Source: an uncultured Elusimicrobiaceae bacterium
GTDB taxonomy: Bacteria; Elusimicrobiota; Elusimicrobia; Elusimicrobiales; UBA9959
Direction: 5' to 3'
Length of the DNA: 50,062 nt
NCBI GenBank assembly: GCA_964534135.1
Contig: CAZHQC010000002.1
Coordinates: 1 to 50,062 of the forward strand
A model generated the notes under the pieces. The model ran no database searches. It saw only the letters and a list, made by a program, of their open reading frames with translations, and was not told the origin of the DNA. This document shows positions 28,472 through 49,454 of the stretch, piece by piece (within the stretch, counting starts at the first letter, position 1; the number at the start of each line of letters is the position of its first letter). The translations under genes were made by a program, and so were the position numbers.

Positions 28472-28544
28472 ATCCTATACGGCTGTAGGTACATTTCATT
28501 TTGTAATCTAAATGTGTCATTCTTGCTTGCGAGGGGGAGGTTTT

Positions 28545-29375
28545 ATGGAAAATGAAAGAATTTTAACTATTCAATTTCAATTGACAAAATCCAAAATACT
28601 GGTAATTTTGACAGCTTTATTTATTTGTTTTCATCCCAAAATTCTGGGCTCTGAACAATTAACTCTTACCACCTATTATCCATCCCCATATGGCGGCTAT
28701 GCCAAACTTCTCACTACAGACCAGACTGTATTGGCAAGAGACGATAACACAACCAGCAAAGTTGGTATTGGGACAGCGGCACCAGCAGGGAAACTACATG
28801 TAGCAGGGACAGGAAATGTTTTGTTCAACACATCGGGCAAGGTCGGTATAGGCACGACAAGTCCTGAAAGGGAGCTGCATGTTGCGGGCACTGGCAAGAT
28901 TAGAGTGGGGGCAGGCAGTGTCGCAACAAATGACACAAGAGGCGTTTATTGGCATAGCGGCGATGCTTATGGGATATATAGAGAAGCGGGCGCATGGACT
29001 CATCCTTACCCGGATCTTAGGATAGCGTTTCATACGGGAATAAGCCTTGGCGCCAATGCCAATTATAATGGCATAAGATTCTTTAGTGACTATAATATGG
29101 CGTCTCTCGTGATGTCAGTTAATGATCTCAGTACCGGCGGCGCAGGGAATGTTTATATGTCCGGCATACTTAAGGGATTGTGTAGAGAAGTAAGGTATAC
29201 TCTCGCGGGATCTTCTTCATTTTGCGGGGCAAATGAAAGAGTTTTTGCTCATTATGGAGACGGCGTTCCTAGAGTAACCGGTTTTTTGCCAAGGACTGGC
29301 TCTGACAATGTGGGAACATATATAGCCCTTGGTCAGGATTGGAACGGAACTATGTTATGTTGTAAGATTCAATAG
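28545..29375 (+). CDS. secreted Gly-rich protein with tail-fibre-like KVGIGT..P...LHVAG repeats
   Basis: I chose the ATG at 28545 (GGGGGAGG SD). Signal/TM segment ILVILTALFICF. Repeated SKVGIGTAAPAGKLHVAGTG and GKVGIGTTSPERELHVAGTG. The C-terminus is Cys-containing (..MLCCKIQ). GC content is visibly higher than the flanks. Confidence 0.55.
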   Translation: MENERILTIQFQLTKSKILVILTALFICFHPKILGSEQLTLTTYYPSPYGGYAKLLTTDQTVLARDDNTTSKVGIGTAAPAGKLHVAGTGNVLFNTSGKVGIGTTSPERELHVAGTGKIRVGAGSVATNDTRGVYWHSGDAYGIYREAGAWTHPYPDLRIAFHTGISLGANANYNGIRFFSDYNMASLVMSVNDLSTGGAGNVYMSGILKGLCREVRYTLAGSSSFCGANERVFAHYGDGVPRVTGFLPRTGSDNVGTYIALGQDWNGTMLCCKIQ

Positions 29376-29438: not shown

Positions 29439-29918
29439 TTGAAACAGTCAAAAGAGAAAATTTCATTGAAATGCGATTTAAAAAAGTATTCTTTGGATGA
29501 TATGAGATATGCCGCTTATTCCGTTACCGACGAGGCGCATGTTTTGTTGAAGAAATTGAATTTGAAAACAATTGAGGTTTCTTTTAAGCGGAAAGGGAAA
29601 GTGTTTCTTGCAAAGACCGTAAAGCGGTTTGCTCAAGAGCTTAAAGATGAAAAGATTCGCGCGGGGATATTTAAAGAAAATTCGGAACTTAGAGAATTTT
29701 TGATTCTCAGCGCCTTAAACTATGAAGAGAAATCTGTGCCCAAAGAAGATTCGATGGGATTAACGCCCGAGCAAGAGAAAGAATTGGATAGTCTTATTAG
29801 TCAAGTTGAGGAGGAAATAAAGAAAGAGACCTCTTCTTCCAAAAAATCAGATCCATTAAAAATAAATCAGACCTGGGAAGAAAAAAATGAAGCTAAAGCT
29901 AAAAAACACAAAAAATAA
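29439..29918 (+). CDS. HxsD-like small protein, copy 1, with a charged C-terminal extension
   Basis: TTG start after a GAGGAGAG SD. It is homologous to 31472..31774: L..D...YS.......AAY.......A........IEV.FK......L...F..EL.D..IR....K.NS.....I...AL. It directly precedes and overlaps an HxsB-like gene. The HxsD assignment comes from context plus a weak match to the motif region I recall for that family. Confidence 0.45.
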   Translation: MKQSKEKISLKCDLKKYSLDDMRYAAYSVTDEAHVLLKKLNLKTIEVSFKRKGKVFLAKTVKRFAQELKDEKIRAGIFKENSELREFLILSALNYEEKSVPKEDSMGLTPEQEKELDSLISQVEEEIKKETSSSKKSDPLKINQTWEEKNEAKAKKHKK

Positions 29919-31344
29919 ATCGAAAGCCAAGGATCTCGTTTCTTGTGCTCGTTGGCGCAAAATTTCAGGGAAATATCTTTTGATTAATGATTTTGGTAAT
30001 TTTGAGTATCTTAAACCGACTGAATTCGATAAGTGGCTAAAATCCAAATTACCTGAAAAATCCAAGGTTTTTACAAGTTTGGCTGAAAAAGGTTTTATTA
30101 GAAATCGCATGGATTTTGATAATTTGTCATCAAAGTGGAGAAATGCGAATAGTTATCTTTTTGGCAGCGCGGGTTTGCATATTCTTGTCATGACATTAAG
30201 ATGTAATCACAGTTGTGTCTATTGTCAGTCAAGTGCGATTGATCCGTCCAAAAAAAAGACCGATATGTCATACAGGACAGCTAAGGCTAGTGTGGATTTT
30301 GCTTTTAAAAGTCCCAATCCTACAATCACAATAGAATTTCAAGGTGGAGAACCGCTTTTGAATTGGGATGTTCTAAAAAAAACAGTGACCTATGCCAAGG
30401 GTATGGAGAAAAAAACAAAAAAGAGTTTGATTCTCGCTTTGGTTTCCAATTTTTCTTTAATGACCGAAAAAAAGGCGAAATTTTTAATGGAGAATGAGGT
30501 TTCCATTTGTACTTCTTTGGACGGGCCTAAAAAAATTCATAATAAGAACAGAACATATCTTAAGGAAAGCTCCTATGATGTGACGGTTAAGTGGCTTAAA
30601 TATTTTAATGCCAAGCATGACAAACAAAATAAAAAATATAGAATATTCAAACCCAGCGCTCTTCTTACGGTTTCAAAAAATTCTCTTGCTTATGCAGAGA
30701 AGATAGTTAATGAATATGTCGCGCGGGGTTTGGAAGATATTTTTATAAGACCTTTGGCGCCCATAGGCTATGCCAAAAAATATTGGAATAGCATCGGTTA
30801 TTCAGCTGAGAATTTTATTTCTTTTTATAGAAAGTCCTTAAAACACATAATTAAGCTTAATGCCAAAAAAGTCATAAGAGAAAAAACCGCTATGATGATT
30901 TTGGATAAGGTTTTAAACGCGCATGATCCCGGCTATCTTGATATGAGATGTCCTTGCGGCGCTTCAATAGGGCAGATAGCTTATAATCATAATGGCGATT
31001 TATATACTTGCGATGAAGGAAGAATGATAGGTTGGACCGGTGATGATATATTTAAAACGGGTAATGTTTTTAAAGATTCATATTCGTCTATTATGAGCAG
31101 TCCGGTAACGAAAAGCTGTGTTTTGTCCTCAAATCTTGAACAACAACCTTTATGTTTCCGTTGCGCTTATAAGCCTTATTGTGGAGTTTGTCCGGTTTAT
31201 AATTATGAAACGCAAAATTCTCCCTGGGGCAATATGCCATCCAATGACAGGTGTAAACTATTTATGGGCATATTCGATACAATATTTGAATTACTTGATA
31301 AGCCCAAAGAGGCGGCTATTTTAAGTAAATGGGTGCAAAAATGA
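29887..31344 (+). CDS. hxsB: HxsB-like radical SAM/SPASM maturase, paralog 1
   Basis: CX3CX2C (RCNHSCVYCQ). IEFQGGEPLLNW SAM-binding block. SPASM-type Cys clusters CPCGASIGQIAYNHNGDLYTCDEGRM and CFRCAYKPYCGVCPVYNY. The ~100-aa N-terminal domain is shared with paralogs 2 and 3. Confidence 0.65.
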   Translation: MKLKLKNTKNKSKAKDLVSCARWRKISGKYLLINDFGNFEYLKPTEFDKWLKSKLPEKSKVFTSLAEKGFIRNRMDFDNLSSKWRNANSYLFGSAGLHILVMTLRCNHSCVYCQSSAIDPSKKKTDMSYRTAKASVDFAFKSPNPTITIEFQGGEPLLNWDVLKKTVTYAKGMEKKTKKSLILALVSNFSLMTEKKAKFLMENEVSICTSLDGPKKIHNKNRTYLKESSYDVTVKWLKYFNAKHDKQNKKYRIFKPSALLTVSKNSLAYAEKIVNEYVARGLEDIFIRPLAPIGYAKKYWNSIGYSAENFISFYRKSLKHIIKLNAKKVIREKTAMMILDKVLNAHDPGYLDMRCPCGASIGQIAYNHNGDLYTCDEGRMIGWTGDDIFKTGNVFKDSYSSIMSSPVTKSCVLSSNLEQQPLCFRCAYKPYCGVCPVYNYETQNSPWGNMPSNDRCKLFMGIFDTIFELLDKPKEAAILSKWVQK

Positions 31345-31471: not shown

Positions 31472-31774
31472 GTGAAAAATACTGATAATGATGTAAGGAC
31501 GCTTGTTCTTGATGAAGAGATATATTCCAAAGAAGCTATAACCTTAGCAGCTTATATTTATTCGGAAAAGGCGGAGATAGGGCATAAGAAAAAAAGTGGC
31601 AAAGTTGAGATTAAATTTAAAGCAATTGAGTCGTCTAATGAAAATTTGGCGGATGATTTTGTCAATGAGATTTTAAATCAGCAGTGCAGAATAGATTTGA
31701 CTAAGAAAAACTCTAAGGTTTCTCAGATAATAACAACGAAAGCTTTATTATCAGCCGCGGGAGAGCGCATATAA
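31472..31774 (+). CDS. HxsD-like small protein, copy 2
   Basis: GTG start after an AAGGAG SD. 100 aa. It is homologous to the first ~95 aa of 29439..29918. Confidence 0.45.
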   Translation: MKNTDNDVRTLVLDEEIYSKEAITLAAYIYSEKAEIGHKKKSGKVEIKFKAIESSNENLADDFVNEILNQQCRIDLTKKNSKVSQIITTKALLSAAGERI

Positions 31775-31788
31775 GGGGTTGATGGTTT

Positions 31789-32916
31789 ATGAAAAAAGGT
31801 TTGATATTAATAACGGTTATTTTATTCGTTTTAATACTGGCATTGAGATATGTAGAGGAAAAAAGCGGAAGATCTGATAGAGACGGCGCTATAATTCAGA
31901 CTGAAAAAGGCGTTGAGGGTGTTTCTTTACCTAAAGGAAAGGACTCGGAGAATCTTATGCCTGAGTTGGAACCGGAAAGTTATGATGGCGGTTTAGTGTC
32001 ATATAATGACCCTCTTACTTTATCTGAAGGTGAAGAAAAATTGAAAAAAGCCTGTAAAAAGGGTTCTGTTAAGGACATCTTCATGGCGCATGGTCAAATT
32101 TGGGGATATGGCATAGCAAGCTCGAAAAGTTTTAACGGTGAAGAGAGTAAAACGATTTATGACCGTTTAGCTCAATATACTGCATGTAGGGCAGCGGCTA
32201 AGAGAAATGTTGATTATTGTAATAGGCTGCCCTCTGGATTAAAAGGTGTTCGGAATATTCCCGCGCGCCTGAGTTCGCAGCACGAATGCATTGATATTGC
32301 CAATAATGTTATTTTTTCCGATTTTATGGCCGGAAATATTAAAGATACATCTTCTTGTTTATTGCTTTTATCGGGTGATATGTTTAAAAATGTCCCAATT
32401 CCGAATGATATGTTTTGTAAGGCTGCGGGAACAGGGCTTGAAAATATTTGCGAATCTTTTAAAAAACTGGGCGTTAAAGGTACCGACAAAGATTTGCCTC
32501 CGTGCTATAAATTTTTTCCGCGTAAATTATCCGATTGTGCTTCAAATTCTTGCAGGCTTAGATATAAGATTTATCAGGGAATAAAAGACAAGAAACCAGA
32601 AAATTGTCCTGATGGCTATAAGAGCGTATGCAGCGCGTATCTTTCGAGATCTACAAAGTCTTGTGAGAAATTGGCATTGAGTCTTTCCAAGACCTATTGT
32701 AATTTTCTTAAGCGTGTTAATAAAGCGAGTGGCAATGCGCCCGGCATGAGTGATGATGAAATAAAACAACATGCTGCACAATTAGAAATGGAAGCAGCAG
32801 AGAAAAGACAGCGTGCAGAAGAAGAACGTCTTTTTGAGAAAAAACGTAAAAAAGAGGATGAGAAGGTAATCAAAGAGATTAATTCGAGAGTAAAAAAACT
32901 TTTGGGGAAAAAATAG
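31789..32916 (+). CDS. membrane-anchored or exported Cys-rich protein with a charged coiled-coil tail
   Basis: N-terminal hydrophobic helix GLILITVILFVLILAL. About 20 Cys are spread through the central domain. The C-terminus is EMEAAEKRQRAEEERLFEKKRKKEDEKVIKE. I recognise no family. Confidence 0.5.
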   Translation: MKKGLILITVILFVLILALRYVEEKSGRSDRDGAIIQTEKGVEGVSLPKGKDSENLMPELEPESYDGGLVSYNDPLTLSEGEEKLKKACKKGSVKDIFMAHGQIWGYGIASSKSFNGEESKTIYDRLAQYTACRAAAKRNVDYCNRLPSGLKGVRNIPARLSSQHECIDIANNVIFSDFMAGNIKDTSSCLLLLSGDMFKNVPIPNDMFCKAAGTGLENICESFKKLGVKGTDKDLPPCYKFFPRKLSDCASNSCRLRYKIYQGIKDKKPENCPDGYKSVCSAYLSRSTKSCEKLALSLSKTYCNFLKRVNKASGNAPGMSDDEIKQHAAQLEMEAAEKRQRAEEERLFEKKRKKEDEKVIKEINSRVKKLLGKK

Positions 32917-32924
32917 AGGTTTTT

Positions 32925-33290
32925 ATGAAGAAAAAAAATAAAATAGGTAAAAACATAAAAATGTTTTTGAATAGTGAAGAAGGCAAAATGCTTGATTCTG
33001 ATATAGTTAAGACCGGACTTGCTTTGGGTATTCTTGGAGGAGCCATAATGGATGCGAGTGTGGCCCATGGCGTGATTCATTCAAATTACTTTAGGTCCAC
33101 TTATCATGTAAGCCATCAAAGCCACGGTTCTCACGGTTCTCACGGTTCTCATGGCTCCCATGCTTCTCACGGCTCGCATAGTTCGCATGGTTCGCATGGT
33201 TCGCATGGTTCGCATGGTTCTCACGGCTCTCATGGTTCTCACGGCTCTCACGGCTCTCATGGCTCTCATGCCAGAGGCGGTTGGTGTTGA
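32925..33290 (+). CDS. hxsA: His-Xaa-Ser repeat precursor protein (HxsA-type)
   Basis: 121 aa. It has a basic N-terminus, FLNSEEG, a hydrophobic segment GLALGILGGAIM, then 18 uninterrupted H-x-S triplets (HVS HQS HGSx4 HAS HGS HSS HGSx9), ending HARGGWC. An AGAGG RBS precedes it. Confidence 0.8.
   Translation: MKKKNKIGKNIKMFLNSEEGKMLDSDIVKTGLALGILGGAIMDASVAHGVIHSNYFRSTYHVSHQSHGSHGSHGSHGSHASHGSHSSHGSHGSHGSHGSHGSHGSHGSHGSHGSHARGGWC
33105..33266 (+). repeat. 18 tandem 9-bp units (CAY-GGY-TCN) encoding the HxS array
   Basis: Read directly: cat/cac ggt/ggc tct/tcg/tcc units. A run of three identical catggttcg units occurs in the middle. Synonymous variation elsewhere argues for selection on the peptide rather than simple slippage. 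Confidence 0.9.
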
Positions 33291-33335: not shown

Positions 33336-33400
33336 AAATTCCGCTTAAGCCCTTTTTCATCATATAGTTGGGAAATGGCTTAAGCGGAATTTGTTTTCTT
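33336..33400 (+). terminator. strong hairpin (terminator or attenuator) after hxsA
   Basis: Perfect 16-bp inverted repeat aaattccgcttaagcc / ggcttaagcggaattt (33336-51 / 33377-92) followed by gttttctttatt. Confidence 0.6.
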
Positions 33401-33475: not shown

Positions 33476-34540
33476 ATGCCATCCTTTGCTGATAACAATT
33501 TAAAATATATTCAAAAAAAATTTAAAAATATTGATTTGCCGGTTATAAAAGCCAGAATAAAAAACATACAATGGCCTGTTTGGAAAAAAGCCAAAGTATG
33601 CGAAGTAACGGTAAATTCAATATGCAATAACAGGTGTTTATTTTGCTATAACAGTGAAAAATATTTTGGTAGTGAACCTGATGCTGATTTTAAAGCAGTT
33701 TGTCGGGCCTTATATGAAGGAAGAAAGCAAGGGGCGTGGATTGCGGCTATTATCGGGGGAGAACCGTCTTTAAATAAAGATATAGGAAAGCTCGCTTCCG
33801 TCGCGAGAAAGATAGGGTATGATTGCGTTAAGATATGCACCAATGGCCTTAAACTTTCAGATAAGGCTTATACTCGACATTTGGTTGAAAGCGGTTTTAA
33901 TATGTTTGATATTTCAATACACGGGCATACTGCCAAAATACATGATACGCTTGTAAATTCAAAAGGGGCTTTTTCAAAAATAATGAAAGCTGCGGAAAAT
34001 GTAAAAGATTATTCCGCGGAACTCGGAACAAATCAAGTTATCAATAAACTTAATTATAAAAGTTTTCCTAAATTTTTTAAGTTGGCCTATGTGGATTTGG
34101 GGATAAATTATTACAATATTATCTATTCTCATTATCGCGGTATGATGTGGAAAAACAAGCAGGTGCTTAAAATTCCCATTACAAAGACCGCGCCATATAT
34201 AAAAGAAGGTTTTAAAGTAATAAAAGATTTAAAAATGCCTGTTTTTTCCAGAATGCTGGTTAATTTTCCGCCTTGCATATTTCCCGAATATCTTGATATT
34301 TTGGCTGATTGGGAATCTGAAGAGGAAGGAGCTGATTCTCTTTTGCTTCCCGGGGGTGAAATTGTAAATATGGCGGAAATGAAAAATAAACAGGCGGCAA
34401 AATCCGCATCTTGCGCGCAATGTTTTTTAAATGATAAATGTCATGGTATAGATAAAGAATACTTGGACATTTTCGGAGGAAAGGAATTTAAGCCTATAAA
34501 AAAGAAAGATATAAAAAAATATTTTAAAACGATATTTTAG
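33476..34540 (+). CDS. radical SAM protein, C-type paralog 1 (HxsC-like?)
   Basis: CNNRCLFCYN (CX3CX2C), IIGGEPSL, internal NFPPCIF, and C-terminal CAQCFLNDKCHGIDKEYLDIFG. It has a ~45-aa N-terminal extension. Confidence 0.7.
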   Translation: MPSFADNNLKYIQKKFKNIDLPVIKARIKNIQWPVWKKAKVCEVTVNSICNNRCLFCYNSEKYFGSEPDADFKAVCRALYEGRKQGAWIAAIIGGEPSLNKDIGKLASVARKIGYDCVKICTNGLKLSDKAYTRHLVESGFNMFDISIHGHTAKIHDTLVNSKGAFSKIMKAAENVKDYSAELGTNQVINKLNYKSFPKFFKLAYVDLGINYYNIIYSHYRGMMWKNKQVLKIPITKTAPYIKEGFKVIKDLKMPVFSRMLVNFPPCIFPEYLDILADWESEEEGADSLLLPGGEIVNMAEMKNKQAAKSASCAQCFLNDKCHGIDKEYLDIFGGKEFKPIKKKDIKKYFKTIF

Positions 34541-34553
34541 GTTTTTCTAGGTA

Positions 34554-35642
34554 GTGATGAATACATTTAATAAAGAAATAAATAAATTTAAAATAGCTTT
34601 AACTTCCGATTGTTGTTTGAGGTGTTCACATTGTTTTATTGATAAAGATTTGAAGGAAAAAACGAATCGTAAGATGGTGGATAGCGTATTGGATTTGTTT
34701 ATAAATTCCAAGGGGACAAAAAAGATTCTTGAAATTTATGGTGGAGAGCCTTTTTTGGAATTTGAATTATTAAAAGAAGTTGTGGCTTTGGCGCGAAAAA
34801 AAGCTTTAAAAAAAAGAAAAGAACTTTCCATATCGGTAGCTAGCAATGGAGTGCTTATTTTAAATAAACATCTTAACTACATGCTTGAAAATAATATAAG
34901 GCTTTCCATCAGTTTTTCCGGGACAAAAGAAACTCAAGATTTGGTTCGAAAATTCCCGGGTGGTGAAGGCAGTTACCTTATTATAAAAAAGAAACTTCCC
35001 AATATTTTAGCTAAACTCGGCCAAAAACTGCATATTATTTTTTGTGTTCATCCTTTAAGGAGTTCTTTTGTTTATAAGGATTTTAAGGCTCTTGTTGCTA
35101 TGGGCGTTAAAAACATAGGAATAGAGTGTGTACATGGATTTAAATGGACGGAGTCGGATTATAAGAATTTTTCAAAAGGAATGGAAAAGATAAGTTCTTA
35201 TGTAATTAAAAAAGTTAAATCAGGAGATTTTATTCTTCTAGAGTCTTTAATGGAAGCCTTTAGGGAAAAAACTTATGAAAATGATTTTTGTCCGTTTTTA
35301 AGAGATTTAGAGATGTTTCCCGATGGCACCCTATCATTATATCCATATCCTTTTGTTAAAGGTTTGGCGCAGAGGAAAAAAATATCCGTAGGCACCGCTT
35401 TAAAAGGAATTAAAAAAAAATATTCTTCTTGTTTGCCAAAATCAGGGTCTGTAAAGTGTAATAATTGTTTAGCCAAGTATTATCAGCTTTCGGGGCTTTA
35501 TGAAGGAAGTGTGGCATATAATATGAGAACGGATATAAGTGTAAAAGCTGTAAGAGATATCCTTGATATGTCCAAACAAGACGGAGTTTTGAGAGATTAT
35601 CTTAAAACCTTATTAAAACTTTTCAAAAAAGGATACACCTAA
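34554..35642 (+). CDS. radical SAM protein, X-type 1 (SPASM/twitch-like C-terminus)
   Basis: DCCLRCSHCFI, IYGGEPFLEF, and C-terminal Cys residues (FCPF...., SSCLPKSGSVKCNNCL). It is related to 42584..43645. Confidence 0.65.
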   Translation: MMNTFNKEINKFKIALTSDCCLRCSHCFIDKDLKEKTNRKMVDSVLDLFINSKGTKKILEIYGGEPFLEFELLKEVVALARKKALKKRKELSISVASNGVLILNKHLNYMLENNIRLSISFSGTKETQDLVRKFPGGEGSYLIIKKKLPNILAKLGQKLHIIFCVHPLRSSFVYKDFKALVAMGVKNIGIECVHGFKWTESDYKNFSKGMEKISSYVIKKVKSGDFILLESLMEAFREKTYENDFCPFLRDLEMFPDGTLSLYPYPFVKGLAQRKKISVGTALKGIKKKYSSCLPKSGSVKCNNCLAKYYQLSGLYEGSVAYNMRTDISVKAVRDILDMSKQDGVLRDYLKTLLKLFKKGYT

Positions 35643-35695
35643 TTCAAATAGTTTAGTGTTTGGGTAATACCTAAGTAAAGTTATAAATCGGAGCA

Positions 35696-37126
35696 ATGGA
35701 GATTCAAAATTCGATGAAAAAAGAAGTTTACCGACCTTTTATAAATTATTTCCAAAGATCTCCGCGCGGCTATTTTCTTTCAAATGATGCCGGGTATAAT
35801 ATCACTTTAACTAAAAAGCAATTTGAGAGTTTTCTAAAAGGAAATTTAAAAGACAAAAAATGCAAAAATCAATTGGTTGAAAAGGCATTTTTTAGAAACA
35901 GGCTTAATTTTGATTTATTGTCGGAAAGATTAGGTTCGTATTTGCTTAAAGATTGGAAAGGGCCGCACATACATATAATAAGCCTTACAAAAAGATGTGA
36001 TTCAAATTGTTTTTATTGCGGAGCAAATGCGACTAACAGTCTTGTGCGCAAGCATGATATGTCTCTTGAAATTGCCGAGAAAACGGTGGATTTTATTTTC
36101 AAGGTTCAATCTCAAGACTTAATGATAGAGTTTCAAGGCGGAGAACCGCTTTTAAATTTTAAAATTGTTAAATTTATTGTTAATTATGCCAAAAAGAAAA
36201 ATAAGATATTTAAAAGAAATATTCATTTTTCCATAGTGACTAATTTAATAGGCATGGATGAAAAAAAATTGGCTTTTTTAATAAAAAATAAAGTTACGGT
36301 TTGTTCTTCTTTGGACGGTCCGCAAGTTCTTCATGATAAAAACAGAAAGATATCCAAGGGGTCTGCTCATTCGATAGTGGCAAAATGGCTGAAAAAAATA
36401 AGTCTTCTTGCTAAAAAAAATACCGCTATTGAAGCGCCAAATGCCATTTGCACAATAAGCCGTTCTTCGCTTAAATATCCGGAAAAAATAGTGGATGAGT
36501 TTTTAAAATGCGGGCTCAATCGTGTGCAATTAGGGCCATTGGATCCTTTAGGCAGGGCGGCGCTTAATTGGGATAAAGTGGGCTATGATGCTAAAGAGTT
36601 TTTAAATTTTTATAAAAAGGCTTTTGATTATATTATTGAGTTGAATAAGAAGGGCATAGATATTTATGAGAAAGGGGCTTTGATGTTCGCTCGCCAGATA
36701 TTAACGGGAGAACGCCCGAGATATCAAAATTTGGATTTTATATATAGACTTGCCTACAATTATAATGGGAATATTTATGGGAGTGATGAGGCAAGAATGT
36801 TAAGCAATAGCGCCGATGAGTTTTTTCAATTGGGTAATGTTTATGAAGATTCTTTTGGAAGTCTTTTAAATAAGCCAATTAGCAGAACTCTTTTTCTCTC
36901 CGCTTTTGGTTTTTTAACTCAGCCCAAATGCGCTCGCTGCGCTTATAATCCGTATTGCCATATTATGCCGGTCTATAACTATGCGGCGCAAGGAAGTTTT
37001 TGGGGCAATATGGCTATCAATGAGAGATGCAAAATTTTTAAAGGCGTTTTTGATATAATTATAAGTAAAATGGAGGACAAAACCGTCAAAAGAATGTTTA
37101 TCAATTGGACAAAAAATTATCAGTGA
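35696..37126 (+). CDS. hxsB: HxsB-like radical SAM maturase, paralog 2 (degenerate SPASM cysteines)
   Basis: RCDSNCFYCG and IEFQGGEPLLNF. The first auxiliary-cluster block is Cys-free (YQNLDFIYRLAYNYNGNIYGSDEARM). The last block keeps only CARCAYNPYC (HIMPVYNY replaces GVCPVYNY). Confidence 0.6.
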   Translation: MEIQNSMKKEVYRPFINYFQRSPRGYFLSNDAGYNITLTKKQFESFLKGNLKDKKCKNQLVEKAFFRNRLNFDLLSERLGSYLLKDWKGPHIHIISLTKRCDSNCFYCGANATNSLVRKHDMSLEIAEKTVDFIFKVQSQDLMIEFQGGEPLLNFKIVKFIVNYAKKKNKIFKRNIHFSIVTNLIGMDEKKLAFLIKNKVTVCSSLDGPQVLHDKNRKISKGSAHSIVAKWLKKISLLAKKNTAIEAPNAICTISRSSLKYPEKIVDEFLKCGLNRVQLGPLDPLGRAALNWDKVGYDAKEFLNFYKKAFDYIIELNKKGIDIYEKGALMFARQILTGERPRYQNLDFIYRLAYNYNGNIYGSDEARMLSNSADEFFQLGNVYEDSFGSLLNKPISRTLFLSAFGFLTQPKCARCAYNPYCHIMPVYNYAAQGSFWGNMAINERCKIFKGVFDIIISKMEDKTVKRMFINWTKNYQ

Positions 37127-37141
37127 TATTGCGGCATTATA

Positions 37142-38041
37142 ATGAAAAGAATAGATATTAAAGTCGGATTTGAATGTAATAATTATTGTGATTTTTGCGC
37201 GCAGGGGAATAAAAGAGACGGCATTAAAAGGAAGTCTCTGAAAGAAATAACGGATATTCTTAAGGATGCCAGAAAAAAAGATATTTTAGGCGTAGTTTTT
37301 ACGGGTGGAGAGCCCACTATGCATCCCAATCTTATTGATGCTGTTAAGGCCGCTAAAAAAATGGGATTTTTTTCCATTCAAATTCAAACCAATGGCAGAA
37401 GATTCGCTTACTACGATTATTGTCTTGAGCTTAAGCGCGCGGGTGTTACCGAAATGGGGCCGTCTTTGCATGGCTCGAAGCCTGAAATTCATGACAAATT
37501 AACTAATGCCAAGGGAAGTTTTAAAGAAGTTGTTAAAGGCATAATAAACTGTAAAAAACTCGGTATGTATGTTTTAACAAATACCGTTATAACTTCGGAT
37601 AATTATAAAGACTTGCCCGATTTGGCCCGCTTATTGACTCATCTTAAAGTGGATCATTTTCAGTTCGCTTTTGTTCATATAATCGGAACGGCATTGAAAA
37701 ATAAAAAATGGATAGTGCCCCGGAAAAAACTGATTATGAAATATGTTCATAAAGGGCTTGATATAGGTTTAAATGCGGGAATTAATTGTTTTACTGAAGC
37801 TATACCTTATTGTTTTATGAAAGGTTATGAACAATGTGTGGCGGAAGAGGTAATTCCGGAAGGGCCGGTGGCGGATGCGGATATTTATGTTGAAAGTTAT
37901 GGCGATTATAGAAGAAATCAAGGTAAAATAAAACATAAAAAATGTAAAAAATGCCTGTATTTTGAAAAATGCGAAGGACCGTGGCGGGAATATCCGGAAA
38001 TCTATGGCTGGGACGAATTTGTGCCCATTAAAAAGCTTTAG
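37142..38041 (+). CDS. radical SAM protein, C-type paralog 2
   Basis: CNNYCDFCAQ, FTGGEPTMH, AIPYCFMKGYE, CKKCLYFEKCEGPWREYPEIYG. Confidence 0.7.
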   Translation: MKRIDIKVGFECNNYCDFCAQGNKRDGIKRKSLKEITDILKDARKKDILGVVFTGGEPTMHPNLIDAVKAAKKMGFFSIQIQTNGRRFAYYDYCLELKRAGVTEMGPSLHGSKPEIHDKLTNAKGSFKEVVKGIINCKKLGMYVLTNTVITSDNYKDLPDLARLLTHLKVDHFQFAFVHIIGTALKNKKWIVPRKKLIMKYVHKGLDIGLNAGINCFTEAIPYCFMKGYEQCVAEEVIPEGPVADADIYVESYGDYRRNQGKIKHKKCKKCLYFEKCEGPWREYPEIYGWDEFVPIKKL

Positions 38042-38059
38042 AAGTAAAAAGGCGGCAAA

Positions 38060-39478
38060 GTGAAAAAAAATAATTTATGTAATTTTAATTTCGAAAAACT
38101 TGGAAAAGATTATTTTATTTCCAATGATTTCGGCAATTGGCTGGTAATTAACGCAAGTGATTTTAATAAAATTTCAAATAATAATTTTTCCGCGAAATCA
38201 GAAATTTATCGGCATTTAAAAAAGGAAGGTTTTTTAAAGGACTACTTGGATTTTGACGGTTTATCGCGGCAGCTTAATAAACTTATGCCCTTTGCTCATA
38301 TAGGCCCGAGTTTACATATTATTGTTGTAACGCTTAAATGTAATCATGCTTGTGTTTATTGTAGAGCCATTAGCCACGAAAATAATTTTCAAAATACAAA
38401 CATGTCTTTTGCCACGGTTCAGAAAAGCGTCAATATGGCGCTTGAAAGTCCAAATCAAAATATAACGCTGGAATTTCAAGGCGGTGAAGCGCTTATAAAT
38501 TGGGCTATTGTTAAAAAGGCCATTAAATATGCCAAGGCGAAAAATAAAAAAACAAAAAAGAATCTTATTATTTCACTTGTCAGTAATTTTAGTTTAATGG
38601 ATAATGAGAAATTTAAATTTTTATCCGATGAAAATATTTCCGTATGCACTTCCTTGGATGGCCCCGGGTTTATTCATAATAAGAATAGAGTTTATCTGGG
38701 TGGCAATTCTTATGATTTGACTGTTAAATGGCTAAAGAAATTTTCTAAGAAAACGGCTACATTAAAAGGAAAAGAAGATTCCTTGCCTTCAGCTTTAATG
38801 ACAACTACAAAATATTCTTTGGCATATCCAAAAAAAATAGTGGATGAATATTATAATTTGGGTTTTGGCGGAATTTTTCTCCGGACTTTATCGCCTATCG
38901 GTTATGCCAAAGAGGTTTGGGGCGAGATTGGCTATGCTCCCGAAGAGTATCTTCGTTTTTATGAAAAAGCTATGGATTGTATTTTGAAGTTAAATAAAGA
39001 GAAGGGTAAATTTGTTGAGAGAACGGCAGCTATAATATTGCGAAAAATTTTAAAAAAAGAAGATCCCAACTATTTGGATTTGCGTTCTCCATGCGGGGCA
39101 AGCATAGGGCAGATGGCTTATAATTACAATGGAGATATTTATACATGCGATGAAGGGAGGATGGTGGCGGCAAAAGGTGATACTTCTTTCCGCATTGGAA
39201 ATGTTACCGGCAGTTCTTATAAAGATTTGATTAATTCCAATGCTTCAAAAGTATGCCTTATATCTTCCTGCCTTGAAAATCAGGTTAAATGCTTTCGTTG
39301 CGCATTTAAGCCTTTTTGCGGCGTATGTCCGGTGCATAATTATGAAACGCAAAATTCTCCCTGGGGCAATATGGCGGATAGCGATTGGTGTAAAATACAA
39401 AAAGGAATTTTTAAAATTATAGTGAAAAAACTTCAAAAAAAAGAATACAAGAAAATTTTTGAAAGTTGGTTTGAATAA
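38060..39478 (+). CDS. hxsB: HxsB-like radical SAM/SPASM maturase, paralog 3
   Basis: GTG start. KCNHACVYCR, LEFQGGEALINW, SPCGASIGQMAYNYNGDIYTCDEGRM, CFRCAFKPFCGVCPVHNY. It shares a 38-nt identical stretch with paralog 1 (39336-39373 = 31199-31236). Confidence 0.65.
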   Translation: MKKNNLCNFNFEKLGKDYFISNDFGNWLVINASDFNKISNNNFSAKSEIYRHLKKEGFLKDYLDFDGLSRQLNKLMPFAHIGPSLHIIVVTLKCNHACVYCRAISHENNFQNTNMSFATVQKSVNMALESPNQNITLEFQGGEALINWAIVKKAIKYAKAKNKKTKKNLIISLVSNFSLMDNEKFKFLSDENISVCTSLDGPGFIHNKNRVYLGGNSYDLTVKWLKKFSKKTATLKGKEDSLPSALMTTTKYSLAYPKKIVDEYYNLGFGGIFLRTLSPIGYAKEVWGEIGYAPEEYLRFYEKAMDCILKLNKEKGKFVERTAAIILRKILKKEDPNYLDLRSPCGASIGQMAYNYNGDIYTCDEGRMVAAKGDTSFRIGNVTGSSYKDLINSNASKVCLISSCLENQVKCFRCAFKPFCGVCPVHNYETQNSPWGNMADSDWCKIQKGIFKIIVKKLQKKEYKKIFESWFE

Positions 39479-40362
39479 TGCCCGATATAGCTTTTTGGAA
39501 TAAATGCAATAGCAATTGCATAATGTGCACCAATATGGATTCTTTTATTAATCAAGATTCGGCGCAATATGGCCTTAAAGAACAGATTAAAAAATTTGAG
39601 AGTTATTTATTGAGAGGCGGAACTTATTTGAAAAATCCTGAGGATGACAGTTTTCTTAATTTAACGGGCGGCGAGCCCACGCTGCATCCTAATTTTTTTA
39701 AGCTTATTGTTTATTTTAGAAGGCGTGTTCCGCTTGCAAGAATTGTTTTGCTCACCAATGGCAGAAAATTTTCAAGTTTAACTTTTACCAAGAAATTTAT
39801 GAGTGTGGCAAAACCGCCTTTTGAAATTGCCTGCGCTCTTCACGGCTCAACTCCGGCAAAGCATGACGCTGTTACAAGAGTGAAAGGAAGCTTCAAGCAG
39901 GCCTTGAAAGGCATTGAAAATATATTGAAATTATCAAAAGGGCAGAAACTGGAAATAAGAATTGTTCTCATTAAACAGAATATAAATGATTTTGAAAATA
40001 TTCTAAAGTTGTTTTTGAAAAAATTTCCCGACACCTCAAAATATAGGATTATTATCATTCATTATGAAATTGAGGGCATGTCTTTGCTAAATCATGAGAA
40101 AATATCTTTAAGTTTAAAAGAGTCTTCCGGCATTATAAATAAATCCTTTAAATTTATTGGAAAATTTAAGGATTTTAGGCTTTACCATTTTCCGTTATGC
40201 TTATTAACTGCGAGGCTTCGTAAATATGCTTGGATTACTCTGCCTATGGAAGATCGCATATATAAAAAAGAGTGCCGAAGATGTTCAGAGAGAAAGAATT
40301 GTCTGGGGCTTATGAAAACTTATTATGAGTATTTCGGTGATGATGAAATTCATGCTTTGTAA
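39478..40362 (+). CDS. radical SAM protein, C-type paralog 3
   Basis: TAATG overlap with the upstream gene. CNSNCIMCTN, LTGGEPTLH, HFPLCLL, CRRCSERKNCLGLMKTYYEYFG. Confidence 0.7.
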   Translation: MPDIAFWNKCNSNCIMCTNMDSFINQDSAQYGLKEQIKKFESYLLRGGTYLKNPEDDSFLNLTGGEPTLHPNFFKLIVYFRRRVPLARIVLLTNGRKFSSLTFTKKFMSVAKPPFEIACALHGSTPAKHDAVTRVKGSFKQALKGIENILKLSKGQKLEIRIVLIKQNINDFENILKLFLKKFPDTSKYRIIIIHYEIEGMSLLNHEKISLSLKESSGIINKSFKFIGKFKDFRLYHFPLCLLTARLRKYAWITLPMEDRIYKKECRRCSERKNCLGLMKTYYEYFGDDEIHAL

Positions 40363-40449
40363 GGCGGCGCCGTGAGGCGTGTATAAAGAAAATTGAGATT
40401 AAGAATTTTCCCCATTATTAAACTCGAAATCAATGTTGATTTTTAAATT

Positions 40450-42554: not shown

Positions 42555-42583
42555 ATAATAAGAAGAAAGAATATAGTGAAGCC

Positions 42584-49264: not shown

Positions 49265-49454
49265 ATCTAAGGCTTTGAGAGATAAATTTTATAGCGGCGA
49301 AAGTATTTGTTTTAATGAAAACCCTTTGATTTTAGCTTGGAACTCGTTATAATAGTAATAGAGACGTTAGGGTTTATTTAACTTTTTAATAGGTTCTTTC
49401 ACCGGTTAATTTCAAACAAACTTAATTTAAAATTGATTACTTAAAGGAGAATAT

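What the first reader, a model, noticed from the sequence alone, without database searches (positions are those of the whole stretch)
32925..33290. Precursor peptide: 18 uninterrupted His-Xaa-Ser triplets (14 are HGS) ending in HARGGWC
Residues 61-114 are HVS-HQS-(HGS)4-HAS-HGS-HSS-(HGS)9 with no spacer residues. A unique C-terminal heptapeptide HARGGWC follows, with Trp and Cys as the last two residues. The coding DNA uses mixed synonymous codons (cat/cac, ggt/ggc, tct/tcg/tcc) outside one run of three identical 9-mers. The periodicity is therefore maintained at the protein level rather than being a recent microsatellite expansion. The N-terminal 60 aa (basic head, acidic patch, Gly-rich hydrophobic helix) look like a leader or anchor. 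The repeat also produces repeat-derived phantom ORFs on both strands. The terminal Trp-Cys could be a capping or macrocyclisation handle, or a recognition site.
Basis: seen in the sequence. Interest (0 to 1): 0.85.

Follow-up and report, generated by a model that had tools for sequence, protein, structure and literature searches.

The report
HxsA4 His-Xaa-Ser repeat precursor peptide
This is a real gene for a small histidine/serine-repeat peptide of the already catalogued HxsA4 family, sitting in an Elusimicrobiota chromosome among a dozen radical-SAM enzymes that probably modify it; it is a distant, uncharacterised cousin of the recently described HXS anti-phage system.

Summary
ORF 32925-33290 (+) encodes 121 aa with 18 uninterrupted His-Xaa-Ser triplets (14 HGS) ending in HARGGWC. 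The gene is real: against its orthologue there are 43 synonymous and 5 non-synonymous codon differences, and repeat number varies only in frame (3-29) across more than 300 homologs. It is not a new class. It scores above the curated cut-off of NCBIfam HxsA4 and lies beside HxsB (three copies above cut-off) and HxsD. The leader motif F-L-x-S-E-E-G-K and a C-terminal Trp are conserved family-wide; GGWC marks one subfamily. It differs clearly from the characterised HXS anti-phage system of Pseudomonadota (Li et al. 2026). It has no peptidoglycan-binding domain, Gly instead of Arg in the repeats, and 12 intact radical SAM genes instead of two. The cluster also holds two HxsD-like genes, a SufS-like desulfurase and a divergent prepilin-type (A24) peptidase. 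The setting is a core chromosomal locus next to LPS and BamA genes that is conserved across Elusimicrobiota. Most likely the peptide is modified by radical SAM enzymes, loses its leader and is exported to the envelope. Its chemistry and its role (phage barrier or metal binding) remain open. It is a new member of a known kind, of moderate interest.

The parts
32916..32919 (+). Shine-Dalgarno GAGG, 5 nt before the ATG. It overlaps the stop of the upstream gene U375, so translational coupling is plausible.
   Evidence: Read directly from the sequence.
32925..33290 (+). hxsA4: the 121-aa His-Xaa-Ser repeat precursor protein (the finding).
   Evidence: ORF. NCBIfam NF038313 HxsA4 67.3 bits vs cut-off 55. 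320 homologs. Purifying selection.
32925..32963 (+). Residues 1-13, the Lys-rich basic head (MKKKNKIGKNIKM).
   Evidence: Family median is 6 K/R residues before the motif.
32964..32987 (+). Residues 14-21, the conserved leader motif F-L-N-S-E-E-G-K. This is the probable docking motif for the maturation machinery (inferred).
   Evidence: Invariant E18 and E19; at least 90% F14, L15, S17, G20, K21. Family logo from 116 sequences.
33012..33065 (+). Residues 30-47, the hydrophobic segment TGLALGILGGAIMDASVA. Two candidate cleavage sites flank it: prepilin-like K29-x-G31|L32, and signal-peptidase-I-like A-S-V-A47|H48.
   Evidence: Hydropathy. Uncharged run median 16 aa, and small-x-small at its end in 104/116. 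[KR]-x-[GA] before the hydrophobic run: K/R in 90/116 and G/A in 113/116. AF2 helix 24-47.
33078..33092 (+). Residues 52-56, HSNYF, a conserved H-[ST]-N-aromatic motif that precedes the repeats.
   Evidence: H52 at least 90% conserved.
33105..33266 (+). Residues 61-114, 18 uninterrupted His-Xaa-Ser triplets (14 HGS). This is the presumed site of radical-SAM modification.
   Evidence: Predicted unstructured, pLDDT about 50.
33267..33290 (+). Residues 115-121, HARGGWC, plus the stop codon. W120 is invariant in the family alignment.
   Evidence: The GGWC tail is kept even in relatives whose core has lost strict HxS periodicity (P0254, P0258).
33336..33392 (+). 16-bp perfect stem hairpin followed by a U-rich tract directly after hxsA4. 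It is a candidate intrinsic terminator or attenuator, or a transcript stabiliser.
   Evidence: MFE -38 kcal/mol, z = -5.9, 0/200 shuffles as good. GC-rich hairpins follow hxsA in L004 and L028 (z about -2.6) but not in L008 or L009.
33081..33269 (-). Repeat-derived phantom ORF (MRAMRAVR...). Not a gene.
   Evidence: It is the antisense reading of the HGS repeat.
28512..29375 (+). U287: a secreted or anchored protein with VGIGT..LHV fibre-type repeats. It is the first gene of the conserved core.
   Evidence: Upstream of HxsD' in most loci. Weak PDB match to Bdellovibrio fibre adhesins 8ojn and 8ond, E 1e-4.
29439..29918 (+). HxsD-like protein (159 aa).
   Evidence: TIGR03976 37.5 bits, below the cut-off of 50. 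The orthologue in L004 carries PF27806 HxsD.
29887..31344 (+). HxsB-1, radical SAM/SPASM maturase.
   Evidence: TIGR03978 478.7 bits vs cut-off 370. CxxxCxxC intact.
31472..31774 (+). HxsD (100 aa).
   Evidence: TIGR03976 54.9 bits vs cut-off 50.
31789..32916 (+). U375: a conserved partner of unknown function. It has an N-terminal TM helix, a disordered linker, an all-helical domain (10 Cys invariant across the protein) and a long K/E-rich C-terminal helix.
   Evidence: Immediately upstream of hxsA in most loci. Alignment A2. AF2 pLDDT 61.6. No Pfam, NCBIfam, PDB or fold match.
33476..34540 (+). HxsC/HxsC4-like radical SAM protein (C4a).
   Evidence: NF038332 112 bits (cut-off 500) and TIGR03977 90.5 bits (cut-off 267.9). 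CxxxCxxC intact.
34554..35642 (+). PapB-like radical SAM/SPASM protein (Pap1).
   Evidence: NF047865 132 bits, cut-off 340. CxxxCxxC intact.
35696..37126 (+). HxsB-2.
   Evidence: TIGR03978 411.3 bits vs cut-off 370.
37142..38041 (+). HxsC4-like radical SAM protein (C4b).
   Evidence: NF038332 137 bits, cut-off 500.
38060..39478 (+). HxsB-3.
   Evidence: TIGR03978 499.3 bits vs cut-off 370.
39478..40362 (+). HxsC-like radical SAM protein (Cc).
   Evidence: TIGR03977 153.5 bits, cut-off 267.9.
40450..41619 (+). U389: a polytopic membrane protein, a divergent A24 (type IV prepilin-type) aspartyl peptidase. It is the candidate leader peptidase for HxsA4.
   Evidence: Invariant D23..K-I-P-N31 and W-P-A-G-D96-A-K-F. 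15/33 family members hit PF01478, best E 4.4e-6. Homologs are named prepilin peptidase. The window copy alone gives no Pfam hit.
41616..42554 (+). HxsC4-like radical SAM protein (C4d).
   Evidence: NF038332 141.6 bits, cut-off 500.
42584..43645 (+). PapB-like radical SAM protein (Pap2).
   Evidence: NF047865 106.5 bits, cut-off 340.
43638..44855 (+). HxsC-like radical SAM protein (Ce).
   Evidence: TIGR03977 102.9 bits.
44856..45701 (+). HxsC-like radical SAM protein (Cf).
   Evidence: TIGR03977 90.3 bits.
45701..46954 (+). SufS-family cysteine desulfurase-like protein inside the radical SAM train.
   Evidence: TIGR01979 303 bits, cut-off 475. The same position is kept in a related genome.
46951..47874 (+). 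HxsC-like radical SAM protein (Cg), the last gene of the plus-strand array.
   Evidence: TIGR03977 92 bits.

Best explanation
ORF 32925-33290 is the structural gene for an HxsA4-family His-Xaa-Ser repeat protein of an Elusimicrobiota bacterium. It is the ribosomally made substrate of the Hxs-type radical SAM maturation machinery encoded around it.

Working model, with the status of each step:
1. SHOWN: the gene is real, is under purifying selection and belongs to the curated HxsA4 family. It sits in a conserved operon-like core: U287, HxsD', HxsB, HxsD, U375, HxsA4.
2. INFERRED: in the cytoplasm the conserved leader motif F14-L-x-S-E-E-G-K21 docks the peptide to HxsD/HxsB/HxsC-type enzymes. 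This follows the leader/core logic of RiPPs and the HxsC-HxsD complex reported for canonical HXS.
3. INFERRED by homology: the radical SAM enzymes covalently modify the HxS units. The PapB-like enzymes may act on the C-terminal Cys. The chemistry is unknown; the only datum for the family is a +8 Da change on one HxS repeat of canonical HxsA.
4. INFERRED from sequence: the hydrophobic segment 30-47 takes the peptide into or across the inner membrane, and the leader is removed. One option is cleavage by the cluster-encoded A24-type peptidase U389 at the conserved [KR]-x-[GA]|hydrophobic site (G31|L32), which would leave a pilin-like membrane-anchoring helix. The other is cleavage by signal peptidase I after A-x-A (A47|H48), which would release a soluble peptide of about 74 residues.
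5. INFERRED: the mature, unstructured, modified poly-(His-Xaa-Ser) array ending in GGWC acts in the periplasm or envelope of this diderm cell, probably together with the membrane-anchored Cys-rich partner U375.

For the end use, my default (about 0.35) is an envelope barrier related to the one proven role of the family, blocking phage DNA entry. Metal-ion binding by the histidine array is nearly as likely (about 0.3).
For: - Family membership: HxsA4 67.3 > 55 bits. HxsB three times, 411-499 > 370 bits. HxsD 54.9 > 50 bits. All 32 aligned relatives hit HxsA4.
- Real coding gene: 43 synonymous vs 5 non-synonymous codon differences against L008, 45 vs 8 against L009, with in-frame repeat indels. 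320 homologs carry 3-29 in-frame repeats.
- Leader and tail conservation.
- Conserved core synteny in 23 of 34 informative loci, plus variable radical SAM trains.
- All 12 radical SAM genes keep CxxxCxxC and are old paralogs at 20-50% identity, with separate orthologues in other genomes.
- Export features: basic head, uncharged run of median 16 aa, small-x-small in 104/116, helix 24-47.
- A24 peptidase in the train.
- Diderm envelope context, with LpxI/A/C/D, FabZ-type dehydratase, OmpH and BamA in the window.
- Experimental precedent for radical-SAM-dependent maturation, N-terminal processing and periplasmic action of an HxS-repeat protein: Li et al. 2026, PMC13128918.
Against: - No step of maturation, cleavage or export has been observed for any HxsA4.
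- The seven HxsC-like enzymes all score below the curated HxsC and HxsC4 cut-offs, so their substrate is assumed rather than shown.
- Radical SAM gene number does not scale with repeat number (rho -0.15, p 0.46). In some genomes the train lies more than 10 kb from hxsA4. Some genomes have a second hxsA4 elsewhere (L042 and L052). Part of the train may therefore serve another substrate.
- The window's own U389 gives no Pfam hit by itself, and the hydrophobic segment does not start with a classical pilin G|F..E5 motif.
- The anti-phage reading is weakened by four things: no peptidoglycan-binding domain, no basic residues in the repeat (0 K/R vs 4 in the 21-residue Aeromonas repeat), a core-genome rather than mobile setting, and no PADLOC defence hits beyond generic radical SAM similarity.
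Confidence: 0.7

Rival explanations
1. It works exactly like canonical HXS. The matured peptide sits in the periplasm and blocks entry of phage DNA by multivalent electrostatic binding.
For: This is the only experimentally established role of an HxsA/B/C/D system. HxsB and HxsD here pass the equivalog cut-offs. The peptide has export-type N-terminal features. Repeat number, U375 and U287 evolve fast between species, as is usual for host-parasite interfaces. At pH 6 or below the 21 His residues of the core (residues 48-121) would make it strongly cationic, with calculated charge +12.5 at pH 6.
Against: There is no peptidoglycan-binding domain, which was essential in E. coli. Xaa is Gly rather than Arg, so the repeat's net charge at pH 7 is only +1.6. 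The locus is syntenic core chromosome next to lpx and bamA genes across many Elusimicrobiota species, with no mobile-element or defence neighbours. PADLOC gives nothing specific. Relatives with the same leader and GGWC tail have His/Asp-rich cores (P0254, P0258), which are poorly suited to binding DNA.
Confidence: 0.3
2. It is a periplasmic metal-handling peptide (binding, buffering or delivery of Ni, Zn, Cu or Fe). The every-third-residue histidine array, possibly cross-linked by the radical SAM enzymes, together with the terminal Cys forms the ligand set.
For: There are 21 His in the 74-residue core, plus a C-terminal Cys, and the region is predicted unstructured. Relatives that have lost HxS periodicity keep His- and Asp-rich cores and the GGWC tail. 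The core-genome setting is conserved across the phylum. From general knowledge, His-rich stretches in Hpn, HypB, UreE and transporter loops bind Ni or Zn.
Against: No metal transporter, metal-sensing regulator or riboswitch is present in the window. Plain metal binding would not need 12 radical SAM enzymes. The one characterised family member has a different role.
Confidence: 0.3
3. Most of the downstream radical SAM train (35.7-47.9 kb) is a separate pathway that merely neighbours hxsA4 (for example cofactor or tetrapyrrole tailoring, as proposed for radical-SAM-rich Elusimicrobia loci). Only HxsB1, HxsD and one or two enzymes act on the peptide.
For: Minimal loci exist with HxsB plus one further radical SAM gene within 10 kb (L034, L035, L038). 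In the L038 genome the train lies elsewhere on the contig. There is no correlation between repeats and enzyme number. NifH-like genes lie near related loci. Meheust et al. linked comparable radical SAM suites to a nitrogenase paralog.
Against: HxsB2 and HxsB3 pass the HxsB equivalog cut-off, and the train enzymes are all closest to HxsC/HxsC4. The train is contiguous and co-oriented with hxsA4 in the window and in L004, L028, L030, L045 and L052. No Nif-like gene is in the window. The train contains a leader-type peptidase.
Confidence: 0.25
4. The ORF is not a gene. It is a 9-bp microsatellite that happens to be open, or a collagen-like low-complexity artefact.
For: TRF detects a period-9 array. 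Pfam Collagen scores 27.5 vs 27.2 bits. The repeat opens phantom ORFs on both strands.
Against: Synonymous changes outnumber non-synonymous ones 43:5. There are 11 different 9-mers for 18 units. The leader and tail are conserved in hundreds of homologs, and only in-frame length variation is seen. The peptide passes a curated family cut-off. A Shine-Dalgarno sequence is present. The collagen hit reflects Gly periodicity only.
Confidence: 0.01

Closest known systems
NCBIfam NF038313 'His-Xaa-Ser repeat protein HxsA4' (with the related HxsA3, NF038309)
   Same: The window peptide scores 67.3 bits against a cut-off of 55. All 32 aligned relatives hit the model. It shares the basic head, the FLxSEEGK leader, a hydrophobic stretch, an HxS array and a C-terminal Trp. 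Public MAG proteins from Elusimicrobiales and Omnitrophota are already named HxsA4.
   Different: The companion family HxsC4 (NF038332, cut-off 500) is not matched; the best score is 141.6 bits. The maturase set here is therefore not the one the HxsA4/HxsC4 pair was defined on. No HxsA4 has been studied experimentally.
HXS anti-phage system hxsD-hxsB-hxsC-hxsA of Pseudomonadota (Li et al., Nat Commun 2026, PMC13128918; family first defined by Haft and Basu 2011)
   Same: It uses HxsB-type radical SAM/SPASM enzymes, an HxsD small protein, HxsC-type radical SAM enzymes, and a substrate with tandem HxS triplets and an N-terminal export signal. Maturation requires the enzymes and includes N-terminal processing.
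   Different: Canonical HxsA is 190-214 aa, with a plain signal peptide, 5-7 Arg-rich repeats (HRS/HSS) and a C-terminal peptidoglycan-binding domain. Here the protein is 121 aa, has 18 Gly-rich repeats, no such domain, a conserved FLxSEEGK leader and a GGWC tail. Canonical systems have four genes in D-B-C-A order, often on plasmids near restriction-modification or transposon genes. Here there are 12 radical SAM genes, two HxsD-like genes, U287, U375, an A24 peptidase and SufS, in a core chromosomal locus. 99.7% of canonical systems are in Pseudomonadota; this one is in Elusimicrobiota.
Radical-SAM RiPPs built on repeated three-residue motifs (triceptides and three-residue cyclophane-forming enzymes such as GrrM/OscB, YhhB, FxsB)
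   Same: A leader plus a core of repeated three-residue units whose first residue is aromatic or imidazole, processed by radical SAM/SPASM enzymes. This resemblance is drawn from general knowledge.
   Different: HxsB scores only 41-66 bits against these families, whose cut-offs are 310-445. No cyclophane chemistry has been shown for any Hxs system. The reported +8 Da change does not match a simple -2 Da cross-link.
PapB-family ranthipeptide maturases (thioether from Cys)
   Same: Two PapB-like radical SAM/SPASM genes are in the cluster. PapB-like genes occur downstream in 18/26 loci whose HxsA ends with a Cys-containing tail and in 0/10 with Cys-free tails.
   Different: Scores are 106-132 bits against a cut-off of 340. 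The core has no Asp or Glu acceptor of the kind PapB uses. The co-occurrence is confounded by phylogeny.
Class III (prepilin-type) signal peptides and A24 leader peptidases (PilD, TadV, FlaK)
   Same: The leader is long and basic, followed by [KR]-x-[GA] and then a hydrophobic helix. A divergent A24-type peptidase with both Asp motifs is encoded in the cluster.
   Different: There is no G|F-x-x-x-E motif and no pilus-assembly genes in the window. The peptidase has an extra C-terminal domain and falls below Pfam detection on its own. Cleavage has not been shown.

Membership tests
HxsA4 (NCBIfam NF038313) | Whole-protein score at or above the curated cut-off (55 bits) | tested here: met
   67.3 bits, E 1.7e-18. 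All 32 of 32 aligned relatives also match.
HxsA4 (NCBIfam NF038313) | Genomic association with an HxsB radical SAM maturase | tested here: met
   Three HxsB genes above the TIGR03978 cut-off lie within 6 kb. HxsB is adjacent in most related loci.
HxsA4 (NCBIfam NF038313) | Companion radical SAM protein HxsC4 (NF038332, cut-off 500) | tested here: not met
   Best scores are 112-142 bits. The enzymes are HxsC-like but belong to neither curated HxsC family.
Canonical HxsA (TIGR03979) | Match to the HxsA model | tested here: not met
   No hit at E <= 0.01 for the window peptide. Only 2 of 32 relatives hit weakly.
Canonical HxsA / HXS defence effector (Li et al. 2026) | C-terminal peptidoglycan-binding domain, which is essential for activity | tested here: not met
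   The protein ends 7 residues after the repeat. The only Pfam hit is the collagen artefact. Compare the Aeromonas HxsA.
Canonical HxsA / HXS defence effector (Li et al. 2026) | Basic-residue-enriched HxS repeats | tested here: not met
   There are 0 K/R in the 54 repeat residues, against 4 in the 21-residue Aeromonas array.
HXS defence system (Li et al. 2026) | [quoted passage not shown] | tested here: not met
   The order here is HxsD'-HxsB-HxsD-U375-HxsA, followed by 11 more radical SAM genes.
HXS defence system (Li et al. 2026) | HxsB and HxsD equivalogs present | tested here: met
   HxsB 478.7, 411.3 and 499.3 bits vs cut-off 370. HxsD 54.9 bits vs cut-off 50.
HXS defence system (Li et al. 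2026) | HxsC equivalog (TIGR03977, cut-off 267.9) | tested here: not met
   Best score is 153.5 bits (39478-40362). The other six score 83-107 bits.
HXS defence system (Li et al. 2026) | Protection against phage; radical-SAM-dependent +8 Da modification and N-terminal cleavage | not testable with these tools
   Needs expression, phage challenge and mass spectrometry.
RiPP precursor (generic) | Conserved leader, variable core, co-located modifying enzymes | tested here: met
   Leader conservation. Variable repeat number and alternative cores on the same leader. 12 radical SAM genes and a peptidase in the cluster.
Triceptide / three-residue cyclophane RiPPs | Maturase belongs to the GrrM/OscB, YhhB or FxsB families | tested here: not met
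   41-66 bits against cut-offs of 310-445.
Collagen triple-helix repeat (PF01391) | Genuine Gly-X-Y collagen repeats | tested here: inconclusive
   27.5 vs 27.2 bits, formally at threshold. The match is explained by the Gly periodicity of HGS and there is no Pro. I judge it a low-complexity artefact.
Peptidase A24 (for U389) | Two catalytic Asp motifs (D..IPN and GxGDxK) in a polytopic membrane protein, plus a Pfam PF01478 match | tested here: inconclusive
   Both motifs are invariant in the family, and 15/33 members hit PF01478. The window copy gives no hit even at E <= 10, and the profile finds no PDB relative.

The most novel reading that the evidence does not exclude
The Elusimicrobiota HxsA4 locus is not an HXS-type defence cassette but a distinct, lineage-wide envelope system. 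In it a prepilin-like precursor is tailored by up to a dozen specialised radical SAM enzymes, with sulfur supplied by a dedicated SufS-like desulfurase. A cluster-encoded A24 peptidase cuts it, and it is displayed at the inner membrane as a chemically novel poly-(modified His-Xaa-Ser) array, for example a metal- or redox-active peptide cofactor, working with U375 and the fibre-like U287. This could also reinterpret the 'extensive suite of radical SAM proteins' reported around Elusimicrobia nitrogenase paralogs.
Probability: 0.3. Interest if true: 0.75.

Novelty: new member of a known kind. Interest (0 to 1): 0.45.

Why it matters
The chemistry installed by HxsB and HxsC has been open since the family was predicted in 2011. 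It is still unresolved after the 2026 functional study, which found only a +8 Da shift on one repeat and achieved no in-vitro reconstitution. A short, soluble-looking HxsA4 with 18 identical target units and many separable paralogous enzymes could be a better substrate for working out that chemistry.

The comparison also shows that the HxS-repeat/HxsB/HxsD module is used well beyond Pseudomonadota defence islands. It occurs in a core, envelope-linked locus of Elusimicrobiota and in Omnitrophota, CPR and DPANN bins, with different anchoring logic and an in-cluster prepilin-type peptidase. That cautions against annotating every Hxs locus as anti-phage.

Tried and rejected
- PADLOC scan of ten cluster proteins gave only generic viperin-type radical SAM similarity.
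- U375: Pfam, NCBIfam and PDB sequence searches found nothing. An AF2 model from a 6-sequence alignment had pLDDT 61.6, and Foldseek against the PDB gave no hit better than E 1.3. Its function stays unknown.
- A profile of the U389 family against PDB sequences found nothing.
- The viral-contig scan gave 11 hits, all to the low-complexity repeat only (query residues 47 or higher) and none with the leader. There is therefore no evidence of HxsA4 on phage contigs.
- I tested whether the number of radical SAM genes tracks the number of repeats. It does not (rho -0.15, p 0.46).
- The leader-only exhaustive search returned just 18 representatives. One was a spurious match to a plant-type PPR repeat protein (P0246), which I rejected.
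- The Rfam and tRNA scans of the window were empty.
- The simple terminator scan missed the hairpin after hxsA4 because its loop exceeds the scanner's limit.
- Haft and Basu 2011 (PMC3133131) and the journal version of Meheust 2020 (PMC7785019) are not held. I used the bioRxiv version of the latter.
- For several high-GC loci the tblastn matches were to antisense phantom frames of the repeat, so my frame picker returned non-HxS translations. I did not use those loci for peptide statistics.
- Correction: my earlier running count of 13 plus-strand radical SAM genes was wrong. The correct figure is 12, with the HemN-like gene on the minus strand as the 13th in the region.
Full report
**Observation**

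Reading the window directly confirms a 121-aa ORF at 32925-33290 on the plus strand: MKKKNKIGKNIKMFLNSEEGKMLDSDIVKTGLALGILGGAIMDASVAHGVIHSNYFRSTY-(HxS)18-HARGGWC. Residues 61-114 are 18 uninterrupted His-Xaa-Ser triplets, 14 of them HGS. A GAGG Shine-Dalgarno sequence lies 5 nt upstream, and two TGA stops follow.

Codon usage in the repeat is mixed, with 11 different 9-mers for 18 units. This is the only HxS run and the only leader-like motif in all six frames of the 50-kb window.

**Is it a gene?**

Yes. The nearest orthologue (L008, Elusimicrobiota MAG) differs at 43 codons synonymously and at only 5 non-synonymously. L009 differs at 45 and 8. Repeat number differs only by whole triplets.

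A search of 5.8 billion proteins found 320 relatives. Repeat number ranges from about 3 to 29, always in frame. In a 32-sequence alignment E18, E19 and W120 are invariant, and F14, L15, S17, G20, K21 and H52 are at least 90% conserved.

**What it is**

NCBIfam places the peptide in the curated family HxsA4 (67.3 bits, cut-off 55). Its neighbours are HxsB (three copies, all above the equivalog cut-off) and HxsD (above cut-off). All 32 aligned relatives hit HxsA4, and some public MAG proteins already carry that name. The kind is therefore known, having been defined in silico by Haft and Basu in 2011 (cited).

In 2026 the canonical four-gene version, hxsD-B-C-A, was shown to be an anti-phage system (PMC13128918). 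The findings were:
- The mature protein acts in the periplasm, anchored by a peptidoglycan-binding domain.
- It blocks phage DNA entry, possibly through its basic repeats.

**How this locus differs**

I pulled a canonical cassette from an Aeromonas plasmid. Its HxsA is 192 aa, with a plain signal peptide, seven Arg-rich repeats (HRS/HSS/HYS) and a C-terminal peptidoglycan-binding domain. It sits beside restriction-modification and transposon genes.

The window peptide has none of these features. It does not match the canonical HxsA model. It has no domain after the repeat and no Lys or Arg in its 54 repeat residues. It carries a conserved leader motif, F-L-x-S-E-E-G-K, that the Aeromonas HxsA sequence lacks.

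The gene neighbourhood is also very different:

| Coordinates | Gene |
|---|---|
| 28512 | U287, fibre-like |
| 29439 | HxsD-like |
| 29887 | HxsB1 |
| 31472 | HxsD |
| 31789 | U375, unknown membrane-anchored Cys-rich protein |
| 32925 | HxsA4 |
| 33476-47874 | Eleven further co-oriented radical SAM genes: two HxsB, seven HxsC-like, two PapB-like |
| 40450 | U389, a membrane protein, inside the train |
| 45701 | SufS-like cysteine desulfurase, inside the train |

All 12 radical SAM genes keep the CxxxCxxC motif and share only 20-50% identity. Each has its own orthologue in related genomes, so the array is old rather than a recent amplification. None of the HxsC-like proteins reaches the curated HxsC or HxsC4 cut-offs.

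**Taxonomy and conservation**

A scan of species-representative genomes with the family alignment gave 97 relatives, and the top 80 are nearly all Elusimicrobiota MAGs. The core U287-HxsD'-HxsB-HxsD-U375-HxsA is complete in 23 of 34 loci with enough upstream sequence. The downstream radical SAM train varies from 1 to at least 9 genes within 10 kb. In one genome with a "minimal" locus, a train of 13 or more radical SAM genes, again containing U389 and ending in SufS and an M20 peptidase, lies elsewhere on the same contig. The window ends with the same SufS ... M20 order.

The rest of the window is core chromosome: LpxI, LpxA, a FabA/FabZ-type dehydratase, LpxC, LpxD, OmpH, BamA and PIN-PhoH. 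Relatives share this synteny. No mobile-element or defence genes are present, and PADLOC gives nothing specific. The organism is a diderm, so a periplasmic destination is meaningful.

**N-terminal anatomy and a peptidase**

Across 116 family members the pattern is consistent:
- A basic head, with a median of 6 K/R residues.
- The motif F-L-x-S-E-E-G-K.
- About eight residues, then [KR]-x-[GA] (K/R in 90/116, G/A in 113/116).
- An uncharged stretch, median 16 residues.
- A small-x-small motif at its end (104/116).
- H-[ST]-N, then the repeats.

AF2 predicts helices at 4-16 and 24-47 and nothing structured in the repeat.

U389 turned out to belong to a family in which D23..K-I-P-N31 and W-P-A-G-D96-A-K-F are invariant. 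From my own knowledge these are the two catalytic-Asp signatures of A24 prepilin-type peptidases. Fifteen of 33 members hit Pfam Peptidase_A24 (best E 4e-6), and NCBI names some of them prepilin peptidase. The window copy is too divergent to hit on its own.

This gives two testable routes for leader removal. The first is U389 cutting at G31|L32, which would leave a pilin-like anchor helix and functionally replace the missing peptidoglycan-binding domain. The second is signal peptidase I cutting after A47.

**The C-terminus**

GGWC ends 32 of 121 sequences, and most others end in Trp or in Cys-rich tails. Relatives that have lost strict HxS periodicity but keep the leader still end in GGWC (P0254, P0258). 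PapB-like radical SAM/SPASM genes occur downstream in 18/26 loci with a Cys-containing tail and in 0/10 with Cys-free tails (Fisher p 3e-4). The Cys-free tails form essentially one clade, so this is a lead rather than a result.

**Mechanism**

Shown: the gene, its family, its conservation and its context.

Inferred:
- Leader-guided modification of the HxS units, and perhaps Cys121, by Hxs-type radical SAM enzymes in the cytoplasm.
- Leader removal and export or membrane insertion.
- Action in the envelope together with U375.

The end use is open. The single experimental precedent argues for a phage-entry barrier. The lack of basic residues and of a peptidoglycan anchor, the core-genome setting, and His/Asp-rich sister cores argue for something else, most plausibly metal binding. 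I rate these about 0.35 and 0.3.

A further caveat is that part of the train may serve another substrate. Enzyme number does not track repeat number. Some genomes carry a second hxsA4 (L042 and L052). NifH-like genes neighbour five related loci, which recalls the radical-SAM-rich nitrogenase-paralog loci of Meheust et al.. No such gene is in this window.

**Verdict**

It is a new member of a known kind (HxsA4), within an unusually large and still undescribed maturase cluster. Interest is moderate (0.45). The most valuable new leads are the in-cluster A24-type peptidase with its matching conserved cleavage-like motif, the conserved partner U375, and the contrast with canonical HXS.

Noticed in passing
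window 33476-47874 (+): An uninterrupted, co-oriented train of 11 radical SAM genes follows hxsA4, making 12 with HxsB1 upstream. All have intact CxxxCxxC motifs and share only 20-50% identity. None of the HxsC-like ones reaches the curated HxsC or HxsC4 cut-offs.
   Followed up: yes
window 40450-41619 (+): U389 is a polytopic membrane protein with invariant D..KIPN and WPAGDAKF motifs. It is a divergent A24 prepilin-type peptidase embedded in the radical SAM train, and similar genes travel with Hxs-type trains in CPR and other phyla (L062, L069, L083).
   Followed up: yes
window 31789-32916 (+): U375 is a fast-evolving membrane-anchored protein with 10 invariant Cys and a long K/E-rich C-terminal helix. 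It sits directly upstream of hxsA4 in most loci carrying this type of hxsA4. It has no family, PDB or fold match.
   Followed up: partly
window 28512-29375 (+): U287 has VGIGT..LHV repeats and a weak match to Bdellovibrio fibre adhesins (8ojn, 8ond). It is conserved as the first gene of the Hxs core in most Elusimicrobiota loci.
   Followed up: partly
window 33336-33392 (+): A 16-bp perfect-stem hairpin plus U tract lies right after the hxsA4 stop (z = -5.9). It is a possible attenuator giving excess precursor transcript. Comparable hairpins are present in L004 and L028 but not in L008 or L009.
   Followed up: partly
window 45701-46954 (+) and ~49440-50062 (+): A SufS-like cysteine desulfurase lies inside the train, and an M20 peptidase (truncated by the window end) lies just beyond it. 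The same SufS ... M20 ending is seen in a related genome. The desulfurase may supply sulfur for Fe-S clusters or for the product.
   Followed up: partly
L023, L029, L049, L050, L059: NifH-family ATPase genes (GKGGIGKST...CDPK) lie within 10 kb of HxsA4 or HxsB in five related Elusimicrobia loci. The radical SAM suites reported around Elusimicrobia nitrogenase paralogs (Meheust 2020) may overlap with Hxs trains. No such gene is in the window.
   Followed up: partly
L042 and L052 (same contig DYIF01000003.1): One Elusimicrobium genome carries two hxsA4 loci. One has the full core and a GGWC tail. The other is U375-HxsA(GSY tail)-SufS. Extra maturase pairs may therefore serve additional precursors encoded elsewhere.
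   Followed up: no
P0254, P0258, P0253: The same leader is attached to non-periodic His/Asp-rich cores that still end in GGWC, or to Cys-rich tails. This is a leader family with alternative cores, as in RiPP precursor families.
   Followed up: partly
P0048, L041, L061, L062, L031, L086: HxsA4-like peptides with the full leader occur in bins labelled DPANN archaea (Diapherotrites, Woesearchaeota), CPR (Parcubacteria, Azambacteria, Saccharibacteria) and Planctomycetia. That is a much wider spread than the Pseudomonadota-centred picture of HXS.
   Followed up: no
genome of L038 (contig of 86,507 bp): A 67-aa ORF directly follows the U389 orthologue inside the radical SAM train. It could be a second small substrate. 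No DNA was available to inspect it.
   Followed up: no
window 1452-1714 (+): A 108-bp tandem repeat (2.4 copies) lies inside a Sel1-repeat gene (1280-1864). This is ordinary protein-repeat DNA.
   Followed up: partly
window 32925-33290: Pfam Collagen (27.5 vs 27.2 bits) and the streptococcal collagen-like adhesin models hit the HGS repeat. These are Gly-periodicity artefacts that could mislead automatic annotation.
   Followed up: yes
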